Assembly (NCBI RefSeq): GCF_009914755.1
Contig: NC_060946.1
Length of the DNA stretch: 64,000 nucleotides
Direction: 5' to 3' (one strand)
From: the human T2T-CHM13v2.0 reference genome, Homo sapiens
Shown here: one piece after another, positions 28,060-51,957 of the stretch
Layout of the letters: every line of letters begins with the position of its first letter
Position numbering within the stretch: position 1 is the first letter of the stretch
The notes under the pieces: generated by a model
The model's database searches: none
Told to the model about the DNA's origin: nothing
The model's input: only the letters and a program-made list of their open reading frames with translations
Position numbers and translations under genes: made by a program

Positions 28060-28134
28060 ATTCTATTCTATTCTATTCTATTCTATTCTATTCTATTCTA
28101 TTCTATTCTATTCTATTCTATTCTATTCTATTCT
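28060..28134 (+). repeat. ATXN10: SCA10 pentanucleotide repeat, uninterrupted (ATTCT)15, normal-range allele
   Basis: a + (ttcta)14 + ttct = 75 nt, counted directly. Occupies the poly(A)-tail position of the adjacent antisense Alu. Confidence 0.97.
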
Positions 28135-29508
28135 TTTTGAGATGAAGTCTCTCTATGTTGCCCAGGCTGGAGTGCAGTGGCGCGATCTCAGCTCACTGCA
28201 ACCTCTGCCTACCAGGTTCAAGCAATTCTCCTGCCTCAGCCTCCCAAGTAGCTGAGATTACAGGTTCACCACCACACCCAGCTAATTTTTGTATTTTTAG
28301 TAGAGACGGTGTTTCGGGAAGTCAGGGACCCTGAACGGAGGGACTGGCTGAAGCCATGGCAGAAGAACATAAATTGTTAAGATTTCATGGACATTTATTA
28401 GTTCCCCAAATTAATACTTTTATAATGTCTTACACCTGTCTTTACTGCAGTCTCTGAACATAAATTGTGAAGATTTCATGGACATTTATCACTTCCCTAA
28501 TCAACACTCTTATAATTTCCTATGCCTGTCTTGTCTTTAATATCTTAATCTCGTCATCTTCATAAGCTGAGGATGTATGTCACCTCAGGATCCCGTGATG
28601 ATCACGTTATCTGCACAAATTGTTTGTAAAGCATGTGTGTTTGAACAATATGAAATTTGGGCACCTTGAAAAAGAACTGGGTAACAGCGATTTTCAAGGA
28701 ACAAGGGAGATAACCATAAGGCCTGACTGCCTGCAGGGCCGGGCAGAACAGAGTCATATTTCTCTTCTTTCAGAAAGTGACTAGGAGAAATATCGCTGAA
28801 TTCTTTTCTCAGCAAGGAATAACCCTGGGAAACGAATGCATTCCCAGGGGGAGGTCTCTAAAATGGCCGCTCAGGGAGTGTCTGTCTTATGCAGTTGTAG
28901 ATAAGGGATGAAATACTCCCTGGTCTCCTGCAGCGCCCTCAGGCTTGCTAGGATTAGGAAATTCCAGCCTGGCGAATTCTAGTCAGACCGGTTGACTGCT
29001 CTCGAACCCTATTTCCTGTTAAGATGTTTATCAATGACAGTGTGTGCCCAGCAGGACATGGACCTTCATCAGTAATTCTAGTTTCGCCCTGGCCTTGTGA
29101 TCTCACTCTGCCTCTCTGCCCTTGTGATATTTCATTGCCTTTGAAGCATGTGATCTCTGTGACCCACACCCTGTTTGTACACCCCTCCCCTTTTGAAACC
29201 CCTAATAAAAAGTTACTGCTTTTGCGGCTCAAGGGGCATCACGGAACCTGCCAACATGTGATATCGCTCCCAGAGACCCAGCTGTAAAATTTCTCTCCTT
29301 TGTACTCTTTCTCTTTATTTCTCAGACCGGCCGACACTTAAGGAAAATAGAAAAGAACCTACGTTGAAATATTGGGGGCTGGTTCCCCCGATAGATGGGG
29401 TTTCACCGTGTTGGTCAGACTGGTCTCGAACTCCTGACCTCAAATTATCCTCCCACCTTCCGCCTCCCAAAGCATTGAGATTACAGGCGTGAGCCACTGT
29501 GCCTGGCC
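28135..29508 (-). mobile_element. AluS element split by an LTR (right arm 28135-28309; left arm 29394-29508)
   Basis: Alu consensus on both sides of the LTR joins seamlessly (tagagacgg | ggtttcaccgtgttgg). Degenerate TSD tagaatggatt / tatactggatt. Confidence 0.93.
28310..29393 (+). mobile_element. MER11 solo LTR (HERV-K11/HML-8; length suggests MER11C)
   Basis: Starts tgtttcgggaagtcagggacc and ends ggttcccccgata. Has the internal duplicated block acataaattgt.aagatttcatggacatttat, AATAAA at 29204-29209, and TSD gacgg/gatgg. Confidence 0.88.
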
Positions 29509-31782
29509 TATACTGGATTTTGAAAGGCAAGACTCAATTATATGCTATGATAAGAAATATACTTTGAATATAAAGGTGAAGATACCTTAAGAGTGAAAGA
29601 ATGATATACCATGTAAACACTTATAAGAAAGCTGGAGTGGCTATATTAATATTAGACAAAATAGACCTAAGGACAAAGAATTTCCCTAGATGTAAAAGAG
29701 TGATATTTCATAATGATTAAAGGGTCAGTTCATCAAGAAGACATAATAGCCTAAACATACATTGCTAATAGCAGAATTTCAAATAACTGAAACCAAAACT
29801 GACACCTGAAAGAAAAAATCGATCTGCAGTCATAATCGGAGATATCAGCGTTCTTATCTTTATAAATTACAGAACAAGCTGAAAGAAAAGCAGGAGGAAT
29901 ATGGAAAACTGGAATACCATCAGCCACCTTGATCAGGTGAAATTTAGTGAACACTGCACCAATAACAGCATGTATGTTCTTTCCAGTACACATAGAACAT
30001 TCACCAAGACAGACCATATGCTGGGGCCATAACAGTGCTCAATAAATGTAGAAGAACTGAAAACATAGACTATATTCTGTCTCTACAGCAGAATTATAAG
30101 TTAAAACTATAAAATATCTCTAATATCCCAAGATATTTGAAAATTAAACAGTACACTTCTAAATAACCCACATGTCATAGACACAACCATATCGAAATTA
30201 GAAAATATTTTGAACTGAATAAAAATGAAAAATGGCATACCTAAATTGTAAGATGGGGATAAAGTAGTGTTTAGGAAATTTAAAATACATGAGAAAACAA
30301 GACAGATTTAAGATCAGTCATCTTAGTTTCCAACTTAAGAAGGTAATAAAACCAAGAGTAGATTAAACCAATGTAAGTAGAAGAAAAGAATTAACAAAGA
30401 TAAGAATGGAAATCTTTGAAGTAGAAAATAAAATAGACATAGAGTGGAGAAAGTCCATGTAATCAGAAGCTGGATGCATATTTAAAAAGATTGATCAATC
30501 TTTCCAGATAAATCTGTCTACCTGTCAAGAAAATGACACAAAATATAAATGACCTCTATCAGCAGTGAAAGAGGAGACATCATTATAGATATTACAGACA
30601 TTAAAAAGATAATAAGAGAATAGCATAAACAACTTGATGCCAAAAAATTTTGACAAAATAGATGATATGAACAGTTTTCTTGAAAGAAACAAAATAAAAA
30701 CTGAATAAAGGATAAATATTTTTAAAAATTAAATGTGTAGTTTAAAATGTTTCTACAACAAAATCTCCAGGCACACATAGTTTCAGCAGTGAATTCTGTC
30801 AAGCATTTAAGAAGGAAAGCATATACCCAATCTTTCTCTTTCATAAAATAGAGGAGGGAACACTTCTCAACTTATTTTATGAAGCCACCATTACTCTGTT
30901 CCCAAATCCGGACAAAAACCTTAAAAGGGAACAAACAAAGTAACTACAGAGCAGTGTCTCTCATGGTCAGAAACATAAAAACACTTTTCAAAATATCAGC
31001 AAAGTGGATCTTGTAATACAGAAAGTGATAATGTATCATGAACCTATGATGGTTTATCTCAGCCGTGCACTGTTGGTTTGATGTTAGAAAAGCAGACACT
31101 TTAATTCTCCCATATTAACAGAATAAGAGGGAGGAAACAATATGATTATCTCAATAGAGGAAAAGCATTCGGAACAAAATTTACACTCATTCACGTCAAA
31201 ATTTGCCACAAACTAACAGTATAAAGGAACTTTCTCATCCTGAAAAAGGCATCTATGAAAAAAAAATTCAACAGCTAGTTTCATACTTTATGATGAAACA
31301 CTGCTCTCTCTCTGACATCAGGAACAAGGCAAGAATTTCTGCTCTCACCACTCCAGTAAACAACGTGCTGAAGGTCCAGAGCAACTCACTAAGCCAAGAA
31401 AAATCAGATGCATGCAGGTTGGAAAGAAGTAAAACTGGCTTTATTCATAAATGAGGTGATCGTGTGTGTTAAGGAACTGATAAAGTTATGAGAAGTGAAT
31501 TTTGAATGGTTACAAGATATGTAAATGAAAATTAATTATATAAAACTAGCAAATAATAATAAGAAAAAATTTAAATGCCACATACAATAGCATCATAAAA
31601 CATGAAATATTTAGGAATAAACTTTAACGAAATATGTGCAAGACCTATACTCTGAAAACCATAAAACATTGCTGAGAGAAGTTAAAATTTAACAGACAGC
31701 TCAATATTGTTAAGTGTTAGATCTCCCCAAGTTGACCTCTATAGAGTGAATGCTATACCAGTCAGAATGCCAGGAGACATTT

Positions 31783-50029: not shown

Positions 50030-50334
50030 TTTTTTTTTTTTTTTTTTTTTTTAAGACAGAGTCTCACTTTGTCGCCCAGGCTGGAGTGCAATGGCGCGAT
50101 CTCTGCTCACTGCAACCTGCGCCTCCTGAGTTCAAGTGATTCTTGTGCTTCACCCTCTCTAGTAGCGGGAATTACAGGCCCATGCCACGACGCCTGGCTA
50201 ATTTTTGTATTTTCAGTAGAGACGGGGTTTCACCACGTTGGCCAGACTGGTCTTGAACTCCTGACCTCAAGTGATCCCCCTGCCTTGGCCTCCCAAAGTG
50301 CTGGGATTACAGGCGTGAGCCACCCTGCCCAGCC
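50030..50334 (-). mobile_element. AluS
   Basis: Full dimer with long poly-T. Confidence 0.95.
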
Positions 50335-51888
50335 TTAATTTTTTTTTTTTTAAGTTGTATAGTAATTCTCCCACCCTCAGCTAGTGTGATTTATCTGCGT
50401 AAACCAGATCAATGAAGACAAACAAGTGCACACACAGAAGGTGATTTCACAGGTGAGCAGAGGCCTCCCAGGGCCCTGTATGAGTGAAGGGAGCTGATTG
50501 CCGGGTGCAGGACTGTGAGATGAATTGGTGATGCTCCCAGCCCAGACCAGTAAGAGCAGCCCACCGCCACCAACTGCCTCCACTACACAGATGCAGGAGT
50601 CACCATTCAAACAGACTCATCCCTAGTGAAAGAGTGAGGGGGACCTGCTTTAGCCAGCTCTCCTAGTACCTTAGCAACGGGCTCCCAGGGTGAGAAGCTG
50701 GAAGTTGGAGAAAGACATGCTGGAATGCATAAGCTTTCAGAAAAGAGACTTCCTTTCCTCGCTCAGGTATCTTGGCAGGTAGTCAAACTGTTTTAAAATG
50801 AGACTGTACAAGTAAATATTCCAAGTTGTGCTCCTTCAGGTTTTGTCTACTCAGCTTTTGGTTTTGTGCCTCTCATTTTCTTACACCTCCAGAATCACAG
50901 AGGCTAGAAGCTAAAGCTGTGTCAGCACACTGGGAGTTTTACAGTGTACGGATTGGCAGACAGCCTGGCTTCTTTCCAGGGCATTAACAGTTATGCACTT
51001 GTGTGTCTTTAGAGCCATGGTCACTGCGTCCCTCTCTCTGCCTCAGGCCTCTGTGTTCCTGCAGGCCAGTGCCTTGCGTTTGTCCTGCCAAGCCTGGTTG
51101 CTCAGCTCTCCCTGGCTCTCAGGAGTCAAAGCGCATCTGGTTCTGCTTGTCTGGTTTACCTGTGTTAAAAGCAAGACTCTTCATGCTTATTCTCACATCA
51201 GTCAGAAGACGCCAGCCTGTTGTTTTTCAGAGCGAGGTTCTCAGTGTGAGCCATGTGGGCGGTCCTTTTTGGTTTGAAGGTGACCACCCTCGCTTTCAGC
51301 GGACCGGGGCAGGGATCAGGGATCAACAGCCTGGGGCAGGGATCAGGGATCAGGGGGCAGGGATCATCACGCAGGAAGCTGTGTGAAAGAGGTGTGGGAA
51401 GCTGCTTCCCTGGACTTGCTCTCGGTTACTTCAGCTGCCTGTCTGCTGCGTTTTCCCAAGCGTGCTTCTCAGTGGTTGCTGTTAATGTTCTAAGGGCCAC
51501 CATGTAACATTTATTTGAAAACAGAAACAAAACCGTATGTGGACACTGATTGCCTGTTCCTAAGGACCTGCTCCTTAGAGCCAAGCCCCGTGACTGATGC
51601 AGGCTGATGGCAGCATCCTGGGGCCTGACCTTGGTGCACTGTGTCTCTGGCTTCTTTGCATGCCTAAAACTTGCGTAGTCTGACACGTAGGGAAAACATG
51701 AGAAATCCATGCCTAAATAATTTCACCTTAATCGTCACTATTCTAGACCAGTTGTAAGCTTACTAGCTTAAGAAAGTATTTTAAATTTAGAAGCTACATG
51801 CAATACTTGTTTTTCAAAATTGTTTACTCAAACAGTACATTTAACAGAGTAGCCATCCTGCATTCCTCCTGGTTTCTCTGTAGTATGA

Positions 51889-51957
51889 AGAATAGAATAG
51901 AAAATAGAATAGAATAGAATAGAATAGAATAGAATAGAATAGAATAGAATAGAATAG
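51889..51957 (+). repeat. (AGAAT)2 AGAAAAT (AGAAT)10 AG microsatellite, i.e. ATTCT on the minus strand
   Basis: Counted directly; perfect run at 51906-51955. Confidence 0.97.

What the first reader, a model, noticed from the sequence alone, without database searches (positions are those of the whole stretch)
28060..51957. SCA10 (ATTCT)15 has an exact antisense partner, (AGAAT)n, bracketing exon 10 almost symmetrically
Seen: 51903-51957 is aat(AGAAT)10ag, 55 nt perfectly complementary to the ATTCT array. The two arrays lie 11.5 kb upstream and 12.2 kb downstream of exon 10 in the same pre-mRNA. Established: expanded AUUCU RNA is the SCA10 toxic species, and long-range complementary intronic elements can loop out exons. 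Inference: the ATXN10 pre-mRNA carries a built-in cis antisense for its own disease repeat. A 55-bp AUUCU/AGAAU duplex could mask a normal-length repeat, be overwhelmed by an expansion, or change exon 10 inclusion. Slow removal of the U12 intron would give it time to form. I know of no description of this pairing, but chance co-occurrence is possible.
Basis: partly seen in the sequence, partly recalled or inferred. Interest (0 to 1): 0.85.

Follow-up and report, generated by a model that had tools for sequence, protein, structure and literature searches.

The report
Inverted ATTCT/AGAAT microsatellite pair in ATXN10
The ataxia-causing ATTCT repeat in the ATXN10 gene does have a rare, perfectly complementary AGAAT repeat one intron further on, but nothing yet shows that the two ever pair or do anything, and much stronger complementary Alu pairs span the same exon.

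Summary
(ATTCT)15 lies at 28060-28134. A second array, (AGAAT)2-AGAAAAT-(AGAAT)10-AG, lies at 51889-51957, with a perfect 55-nt core at 51903-51957. They sit 11.5 kb before and 12.2 kb after exon 10.

The pairing is rarer than I expected. The genome holds only 95 perfect runs of 10 or more AGAAT units. A sense-strand partner anywhere in the 173-kb gene therefore has a chance of about 0.002-0.004, uncorrected and post hoc. The two arrays share no flanking homology. The ATTCT array is the known Alu-tail derivative; the AGAAT array stands in single-copy sequence. I read them as independent in origin.

The predicted RNA duplex is -79 to -96 kcal/mol and is the longest uninterrupted helix across exon 10. 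Six full-length inverted Alu pairs across the same exon are predicted at -429 to -474 kcal/mol.

Published transgenes lacking the partner argue against a masking role: 12 or 25 repeats gave no foci and ~500 repeats did. Exon 10 skipping would need a U2 donor joined to a U12 acceptor.

Best reading: an incidental pair that could pair but has no shown function. I found no description of it in print. No primate, RNA-duplex or editing data could be reached with these tools.

The parts
28060..28134 (+). (ATTCT)15, the SCA10 repeat in U2-type intron 9 of ATXN10. It abuts TTTT and the 3' end of an antisense Alu.
   Evidence: Alu homology of 28161-28310. Origin from the Alu poly(A) tail is from Kurosaki 2009 as summarised in PMC9528567 (passages).
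51889..51957 (+). (AGAAT)2 AGAAAAT (AGAAT)10 AG in U12-type intron 10. The perfect 55-nt core is 51903-51957.
   Evidence: The surrounding 1.2 kb is single-copy in the genome. No homology to the flanks of the ATTCT array beyond 1-4 nt.
39669..39732 (+). ATXN10 exon 10 (64 nt), bracketed by the two arrays.
   Evidence: Hub annotation. One search shows a polypyrimidine tract and AG before it, and the reading frame continues into exon 11.
39733..39740 (+). U12-type 5' splice site GTATCCTT of intron 10. The intron runs 39733 to window coordinate 75688, 35,956 nt.
   Evidence: Branch site TTCCTTCAC lies 12 nt upstream of the AG at L010:1669-1688. PMC3964310 calls intron 10 U12-type.
27928..28059 (+). 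Purine-rich stretch just upstream of the ATTCT array, with AGAAU-like stretches. It is the predicted local pairing partner of the AUUCU array.
   Evidence: mean P(paired) of the array is 0.67, with partners at 27928-28067; local fold -37.0 kcal/mol against -24.3 +- 4.8 for 200 shuffles.
28135..28310 (-). 3' part of the antisense Alu whose former tail is the ATTCT array. It is complementary to sense Alus in intron 10.
   Evidence: 28161-28310 x 48785-48942, 158 bp at 80%, and 28156-28293 x 58608-58749.: -229 kcal/mol.
48669..48997 (+). Sense Alu in intron 10, the main partner of several antisense Alus in intron 9 (4128-4433, 6160-6471, 12793-13083, 28161-28310).
   Evidence: -449 to -462 kcal/mol for the full-length pairs.

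Best explanation
These are two independently arisen pentanucleotide microsatellites of the same duplex motif, lying in opposite orientation in adjacent introns of ATXN10. The ATTCT array is the known derivative of an antisense Alu poly(A) tail. The AGAAT array is a free-standing microsatellite in unique sequence of the U12-type intron 10. Their RNA copies could form a perfect 55-bp duplex (69 bp with one bulge), and both can coexist for minutes on a nascent transcript. The pair is most likely incidental, with no selected role. Any pairing that does occur would be one minor contributor among many stronger inverted Alu pairs across exon 10. It is not a mask for the repeat or a switch for exon 10. 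Shown: the sequences, their rarity, the lack of shared flanks, the intron types and the predicted energies. Inferred: independent origin and absence of function.
For: No flank homology between the arrays. Array 2 sits in single-copy sequence. The ATTCT origin from the Alu tail is published (PMC9528567 passages), and the adjoining Alu is visible. None of the 4 other AGAAT arrays inspected (L001, L002, L004, L008, out of 8 loci fetched) has an Alu hit abutting the array, so free-standing arrays of this motif occur elsewhere. There are 42 inverted HSPs across exon 10 in the window. Six full-length Alu pairs are predicted at -429 to -474 kcal/mol, against -95.7 for the array pair. The AUUCU array is predicted to pair locally with 27928-28059; opening costs are 26.2 and 15.5 kcal/mol. 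The arrays lie 11.5 and 12.2 kb from the splice sites, whereas the short repeats shown sufficient for circularisation sat in introns under 100 nt (PMC4201285 passages). Transgenes without the partner behave as expected from repeat length alone (PMC2883596 passages). Intron 9 is U2-type and intron 10 U12-type, which disfavours exon 10 skipping.
Against: The co-occurrence is improbable under uniform placement: about 5e-4 within +-24 kb and 2e-3 to 3.6e-3 within the gene. None of the 28 other arrays listed has a neighbour within 671 kb. The duplex is the longest uninterrupted helix across exon 10, 55 bp against 28-41 bp for the Alu pairs. It remains favourable after opening costs, at roughly -54 kcal/mol before the loop penalty. 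(AGAAU)10 hybridises to AUUCU RNA in fixed cells; it is the published FISH riboprobe (PMC2883596). Exon 10 takes part in a U12-dependent circular RNA whose acceptor lies in intron 9 near the repeat (PMC4506483, section 18 read), so RNA looping around this exon does occur.
Confidence: 0.65

Rival explanations
1. In nascent ATXN10 pre-mRNA the AGAAU array pairs in cis with the AUUCU repeat, looping out 23.8 kb that contains exon 10. This would affect RNA processing (exon-10 circRNA yield, intron 9 or 10 kinetics, ADAR editing) and possibly tether ATXN10 transcripts to AUUCU foci in SCA10.
For: Perfect 55-bp complementarity with a predicted -79 to -96 kcal/mol. Each array is the other's only partner in 109 kb. 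The pair is rare. Intron 10 is a 36-kb U12 intron, so the AGAAU array stays on the transcript for many minutes. Intron 9 cannot be removed before exon 10 is made, and the AGAAT array follows only 12.2 kb later, about 3-6 min at 2-4 kb/min (elongation rate recalled). Inverted repeats of 30-40 nt suffice for circularisation in minigenes (PMC4201285). An exon-10 circRNA exists (PMC4506483).
Against: There are no duplex, editing or perturbation data. The arrays lie more than 11 kb from the splice sites. Stronger Alu pairs and a local partner compete. Low-complexity repeats can fail to support circularisation (PMC4201285 passages). The text of PMC4506483 suggests the repeat lies inside the circle-forming span, in which case the pair would not bracket the backsplice sites. 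SCA10 foci lacked exon 9 and exon 10 sequences, and intron 9 is spliced normally (PMC2883596 passages).
Confidence: 0.15
2. A DNA-level effect. At the DNA level both arrays are the same (ATTCT)n.(AGAAT)n duplex, a DNA-unwinding element. The second copy, inverted and 23.8 kb away, could act as a second easily unwound site. It could also serve as a short inverted homology used in template switching or break-induced replication when the SCA10 repeat breaks, influencing instability or rearrangements.
For: RefSeq marks an origin of replication and a replication regulatory region at the ATTCT array (hub annotation). The unwinding and origin activity of this motif is published (cited in PMC9099484, passages). 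The arrays are inverted copies.
Against: Only 55-69 bp of homology. There is no annotation or report of origin activity, or of inversions ending at 51.9 kb. Nothing here tests it.
Confidence: 0.05
3. Shared mutational origin. The AGAAT array was seeded from the ATTCT array, or both from one event, by an inverted duplication or template switch. That would explain the improbable proximity without any function.
For: The low chance probability of two rare arrays 23.8 kb apart. The AGAAAAT unit in array 2 is the complement of ATTTTCT, which PMC9528567 lists among SCA10 interruption motifs.
Against: Complementarity stops within 1-4 nt of the array ends. Array 2 has unique flanks with no Alu or L1 remnant. 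No known mechanism copies only the repeat units over 24 kb.
Confidence: 0.07
4. The purine-rich AGAAU array acts on its own as a protein-binding platform, an intronic splicing enhancer or silencer for the U12 intron, independent of the AUUCU repeat.
For: The array holds 13 repeated AGAA-containing units. AGAA-type motifs are known SR/TRA2-class binding sites (recalled, not tested).
Against: It lies 12 kb from the nearest splice site. No binding data were available. Microsatellites of this kind are common by-products of slippage.
Confidence: 0.05

Closest known systems
Inverted Alu pairs (IRAlus) and other complementary intronic sequences that loop out exons and promote circular RNA
   Same: Reverse-complementary sequences lie in the two introns flanking an exon. 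Their length exceeds the 30-40 nt shown sufficient in minigenes (PMC4201285). The exon concerned does circularise (PMC4506483).
   Different: This is a 20% G+C microsatellite rather than a 300-nt Alu. It lies 11.5-12.2 kb from the splice sites. Pairing is not demonstrated. It is outcompeted on predicted energy by six real Alu pairs in the same introns.
SCA10 (ATTCT)n repeat as an Alu poly(A)-tail-derived microsatellite (Kurosaki 2009, via PMC9528567)
   Same: Array 1 is exactly this element: between an L1 fragment and an antisense AluSx, in intron 9.
   Different: Array 2 has no adjoining Alu or L1 tail and lies in single-copy sequence, so it is not a second member of the Alu-tail class.
(AGAAU)10 antisense riboprobe used to detect SCA10 RNA foci (White 2010, PMC2883596)
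   Same: It has the same sequence and length as the perfect core of the endogenous intron-10 array, and it hybridises to AUUCU RNA.
   Different: The probe is exogenous, applied to fixed cells at 45 C. The endogenous array is one 13-unit copy per transcript inside a 36-kb intron.
Bidirectional or antisense transcription across expansion repeats (for example ATXN8OS/ATXN8, C9orf72)
   Same: It would supply RNA complementary to the disease repeat.
   Different: Here the complementary RNA would come from the same strand and the same transcript, not from antisense transcription of the repeat itself.

Membership tests
U12-type (minor) intron: ATXN10 intron 10 | 5' splice site matching /RTATCCTT | tested here: met
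   GTATCCTT at 39733-39740, immediately after exon 10.
U12-type (minor) intron: ATXN10 intron 10 | Branch site resembling TCCTTAAC about 10-15 nt upstream of the 3' splice site, without a long polypyrimidine tract | tested here: met
   TTCCTTCAC at L010:1669-1677, with the branch A 12 nt before the AG at 1687-1688 and one mismatch to the consensus. The consensus itself is recalled. PMC3964310 calls this intron U12-type.
Alu-tail-derived disease microsatellite | Array directly abuts the 3' (A-tail) end of an Alu | tested here: met
   Array 1: ATTCT...TTTTGAGA followed by antisense Alu sequence, with Alu homology. Array 2 does not meet this feature: there is no Alu within its flanks (nearest masked stretches are 50169-50362 and 53939-54079 per the hub annotation).
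Functional long-range complementary intronic pair (exon looping or circRNA-promoting inverted repeat) | Reverse complementarity of at least 30-40 nt between the two introns flanking the exon | tested here: met
   55 nt perfect, or 69 bp with a bulge.
Functional long-range complementary intronic pair (exon looping or circRNA-promoting inverted repeat) | The pair brackets the splice sites that are brought together and lies near them | tested here: inconclusive
   The pair brackets exon 10 but at 11.5 and 12.2 kb. The backsplice acceptor of the published exon-10 circRNA lies somewhere in intron 9 'close to' the repeat (PMC4506483). Its coordinate is in a figure and in xls/pdf supplements that could not be read.
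Functional long-range complementary intronic pair (exon looping or circRNA-promoting inverted repeat) | Direct evidence of base pairing in cells (proximity ligation, editing) or an effect of disrupting and restoring complementarity | not testable with these tools
   No RNA-duplex, editing or perturbation data were reachable. Literature searches found none.
Functional long-range complementary intronic pair (exon looping or circRNA-promoting inverted repeat) | Evolutionary co-conservation of both arms | not testable with these tools
   No primate or other vertebrate genomes are held. Only the history of array 1 is in print (PMC9528567).

The most novel reading that the evidence does not exclude
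ATXN10 pre-mRNA carries a built-in, same-strand antisense to its own disease repeat. In nascent transcripts the (AGAAU)13 array of the slowly removed U12 intron 10 would form a perfect 55-69-bp A-form helix with the AUUCU repeat of intron 9. The helix would be edited by ADAR; the first A of each AGAAU unit sits in a U-A-G context, the preferred triplet (recalled). It would modulate the U12-dependent exon-10 circular RNA or the fate of intron 9. In SCA10 it would tether ATXN10 transcripts, and other transcripts among the roughly 95 genomic AGAAT/ATTCT arrays that present AGAAU, to the AUUCU foci.
Probability: 0.1. Interest if true: 0.75.

Novelty: new member of a known kind. Interest (0 to 1): 0.4.

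Why it matters
If the duplex formed in cells, it would be a natural cis-acting modifier at a repeat-expansion locus. That would be a reason to genotype the intron-10 array in SCA10 families with variable penetrance. It would also be a ready-made test case for long-range RNA pairing across a U12 intron and a candidate determinant of the exon-10 circular RNA. If it does not form, which I think more likely, the finding still has practical uses. AUUCU/ATTCT-type probes or guides would also have a target at the intron-10 AGAAT/AGAAU array 24 kb from the SCA10 repeat in the same gene. The genome-wide count of about 95 arrays of 10 or more units gives a baseline for off-target reasoning about this motif.

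Tried and rejected
I did not send that form again. Instead I derived run counts by subtracting plain-letter counts for 6, 10 and 11 units. As a result only the arrays in the first 100 listed matches of each call could be checked for neighbours.

3. Kurosaki 2009 is not held, so the origin of the ATTCT array is cited second-hand from PMC9528567.

4. The coordinate of the ATXN10 backsplice acceptor was not recoverable. The readable supplements of PMC4506483 hold only mouse Atxn10 rows, and the relevant files are xls/pdf.

5. I scanned for U12 branch-site and donor motifs to guess the cryptic exon. One candidate turned up at 23988-24068. However, RTATCCTT occurs 7 times in the window against 4.7 expected (26 of 100 shuffles reach 7), and TCCTTRAY 4 times against 13 expected. 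This is only a lead, so I did not use it in the argument.

6. Inverted duplication as the origin was rejected, because complementarity ends at the array borders.

7. Array 2 as a retroelement tail was rejected on its flanks.

8. A search for published splicing and elongation rates failed on a term-length error and was not repeated. The rates used are recalled.

9. Primate comparison was not possible, since no vertebrate genome other than the window's own is held.

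
Full report
**Observation**

The window holds (ATTCT)15 at 28060-28134. It also holds a complementary array at 51889-51957 that reads (AGAAT)2 AGAAAAT (AGAAT)10 AG. The two extra units and the 7-nt unit upstream allow 69 base pairs with one bulge. Exon 10 (39669-39732) lies 11.5 kb after the first array and 12.2 kb before the second.

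**Is it more than chance?**

The window's own genome (3.117 Gb) could be searched with plain-letter patterns.
- (AGAAT)10 matches 154 times forward and 221 reverse.
- (AGAAT)11 matches 119 and 161.
- Each perfect run of 10 or more in-phase units adds exactly one to the difference. That gives 35 forward and 60 reverse runs, 95 in all.
- (AGAAT)6 matches 324 and 494. This leaves room for only 8-30 more forward runs and 9-33 more reverse runs of 6-9 units.
- The tool warns that its counts are lower bounds.

Under uniform placement:
- A forward-strand run within +-24 kb of the ATTCT array has probability about 5e-4.
- Anywhere in the 173-kb gene, the probability is about 2e-3.
- At the lenient 6-unit threshold it is at most about 3.6e-3.
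- Genome-wide, about 0.03 opposite-strand pairs, or 0.07 pairs of any orientation, within 24 kb are expected.

Two further checks point the same way. One search listed 100 of its 280 matches, covering chromosomes 1 to part of 5, and these resolve into 28 distinct arrays. The closest two are 671 kb apart. In 109 kb covering all of introns 9 and 10, these are the only two tracts of three or more units.

So the proximity is unusual. The figures are post hoc, assume uniformity, and are not corrected for the many kinds of coincidence a reader could flag at any of the known expansion loci.

**What the two arrays are**

Array 1 is followed by TTTT and antisense Alu sequence. Positions 28161-28310 align to sense Alus in intron 10. 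That Alu is split by an insertion of about 1.09 kb and resumes near 29395. This matches the published account that the repeat lies between an L1 and an AluSx and arose from the Alu poly(A) tail about 50 million years ago. That account is Kurosaki 2009 as summarised in PMC9528567, of which I saw passages; the original paper is not held.

Array 2 has no such neighbour. Its flanks look non-repetitive. The 1.2 kb around it matches only itself in the genome. Complementarity to array 1 stops within 1-4 nt of the array ends. I inspected four other genomic AGAAT arrays (L001, L002, L004, L008, out of eight loci fetched), and none has an Alu hit abutting the array. I therefore read the two arrays as independent in origin. 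That is an inference from flanks only, because no primate genomes are held.

**Splicing context**

- Intron 9 starts GTAAGA and ends with a polypyrimidine tract and AG. It is U2-type and 66,362 nt long in this assembly.
- Intron 10 starts GTATCCTT and ends with TTCCTTCAC 12 nt before the AG of exon 11, at window coordinate 75688. It is U12-type and 35,956 nt long.
- PMC3964310 (passages) also calls intron 10 U12-type and reports its retention when SMN or HDAC11 is reduced.

Cis pairing requires the U2-type intron 9 to persist until Pol II has gone 12.2 kb past exon 10. That is a few minutes at recalled elongation rates of 2-4 kb/min, which is plausible for a fraction of transcripts.

Skipping exon 10 would require a U2 donor to be joined to a U12 acceptor, which the two spliceosomes do not do efficiently (recalled). 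It would also shift the reading frame, since the exon is 64 nt. The part of the hypothesis about changing exon 10 inclusion is therefore weak.

A related event is published. Szabo 2015 (PMC4506483, section 18 read in full) found a U12-dependent circular RNA backspliced from the exon-10 donor to a cryptic exon in intron 9 'close to' the repeat. The acceptor coordinate is in a figure and in supplements that I could not read. The authors' speculation that the expanded repeat might be contained in some circles suggests the repeat lies inside the circle-forming span. In that case the two arrays would not bracket the backsplice sites.

**Energetics and competition**

| Pairing | Predicted energy (kcal/mol) |
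|---|---|
| 55-bp core duplex | -79.0 |
| 69-bp form with bulge | -95.7 |
| Either array alone, self-fold | 0 |
| Six full-length inverted Alu pairs across exon 10 | -429 to -474 |
| Alu fragment touching the ATTCT array (28161-28310) with 48785-48942 | -229 |

- With 600-nt flanks, the AUUCU array is predicted to be mostly paired (mean probability 0.67) with the purine-rich stretch at 27928-28059.
- That local fold is -37.0 kcal/mol against -24.3 +- 4.8 for 200 shuffles.
- Opening the two arrays costs 26.2 and 15.5 kcal/mol. About -54 kcal/mol is left before the penalty for closing a 23.8-kb loop.
- Blastn finds 42 inverted matches across exon 10 within the window.
- The array pair does have the longest uninterrupted helix: 55 bp against 28-41 bp for the Alu pairs.
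- Liang and Wilusz 2014 (PMC4201285, abstract and passages) showed that 30-40 nt of inverted repeat suffices for circularisation. That was in introns under 100 nt, and low-complexity tracts could fail.

Pairing is thermodynamically allowed. It is kinetically and competitively disadvantaged.

**Disease-related claims**

White 2010 (PMC2883596, passages) detected SCA10 foci with a Cy3-(AGAAU)10 riboprobe, which has the same sequence as the core of array 2. The two RNAs therefore do hybridise, at least in fixed cells.

The same paper reports three further points:
- Transgenes with 12 or 25 repeats in a rabbit beta-globin intron, with no AGAAT partner, gave no aggregates, while ~500 repeats did.
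- Intron 9 is spliced normally in SCA10 cells.
- hnRNP K pull-downs held intron 9 but not exon 9 or exon 10.

Normal-length repeats are thus harmless, and expanded ones harmful, without the partner. A 13-unit partner could also cover under 2% of an 800-4,500-unit expansion. A masking role is not needed to explain anything known. A modulating or tethering role is not excluded.

**Literature**

- Search for ATTCT + AGAAT + ATXN10: 11 papers. I read passages from 4. In those, AGAAT means the complementary DNA strand, a probe, or the repeat itself.
- Search for ATXN10 + 'intron 10' + repeat: 2 papers.
- Search for AUUCU + AGAAU: 9 papers hold both terms, 7 listed.
- Search for ATXN10 + 'exon 10' + skipping: 2 papers, with the ATXN10 passages read.
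- Search for ATXN10 + A-to-I + intronic: 3 papers.

None of these searches turned up a description of the intron-10 array or the pairing. I did not open the other 7 papers of the first search. Most subscription papers are not in the library.

**Verdict**

This is a real and statistically unusual inverted microsatellite pair in a disease gene. It is not described in the literature I could search. It has physical potential to pair, but there is no evidence that it does, and several reasons to expect little effect.

My estimates are:
- about 0.65 that it is incidental;
- about 0.15 that the duplex forms with some measurable molecular consequence;
- the remainder spread over DNA-level effects, shared mutational origin and protein-binding alternatives.

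The decisive data are primate alignments, proximity-ligation or editing data, and deletion of 51889-51957. All lie outside these tools.

Noticed in passing
window 23974-24076: Candidate cryptic U12-type exon in intron 9. A branch-site-like TCCTTGAT sits at 23974, an AG at 23986-23987, and a perfect U12 donor GTATCCTT at 24069, about 4 kb upstream of the ATTCT array. It might correspond to the cryptic exon of the published exon-10 circular RNA. However, both motifs occur at near-chance rates in the window, and the branch-to-AG distance (7 nt) is short.
   Followed up: partly
window 39815-39820: A U2-type donor GTATGT lies 82 nt downstream of the U12 donor of exon 10. It matches the annotated alternative exon 39669-39814 and sets up U2/U12 donor competition at this exon. 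The alternative transcripts continue into exons 44408-44503 and 44721-75740. The latter would make the AGAAU array exonic in that isoform.
   Followed up: partly
window 28311-29394: The antisense Alu next to the ATTCT array is split by an insertion of about 1.09 kb, LTR-like by eye. The Alu resumes near 29395, and both halves align to the same breakpoint in the sense Alu at 48785/48786.
   Followed up: partly
window 51899-51905: The single variant unit of array 2, AGAAAAT, is the complement of ATTTTCT. PMC9528567 lists that heptanucleotide among the interruption motifs of expanded SCA10 alleles.
   Followed up: no
window 147-174 and 45147-45175: (AC)14.5 in intron 9 and an imperfect (TG)14.5 in intron 10 form another complementary microsatellite pair across exon 10. 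Such pairs are unremarkable for common motifs.
   Followed up: no
window 47411-47521: A 54-nt unit is repeated 2.1 times (89% match) in intron 10, next to a masked repeat. Its nature is unknown.
   Followed up: no
genome-wide: The motif read backwards (the tool's control) is about 30-50 times rarer than AGAAT arrays: 7 against 375 matches at 10 units. Perfect runs of 6-9 units are fewer than runs of 10 or more, an odd length distribution that may reflect the tool's lower-bound counting.
   Followed up: no
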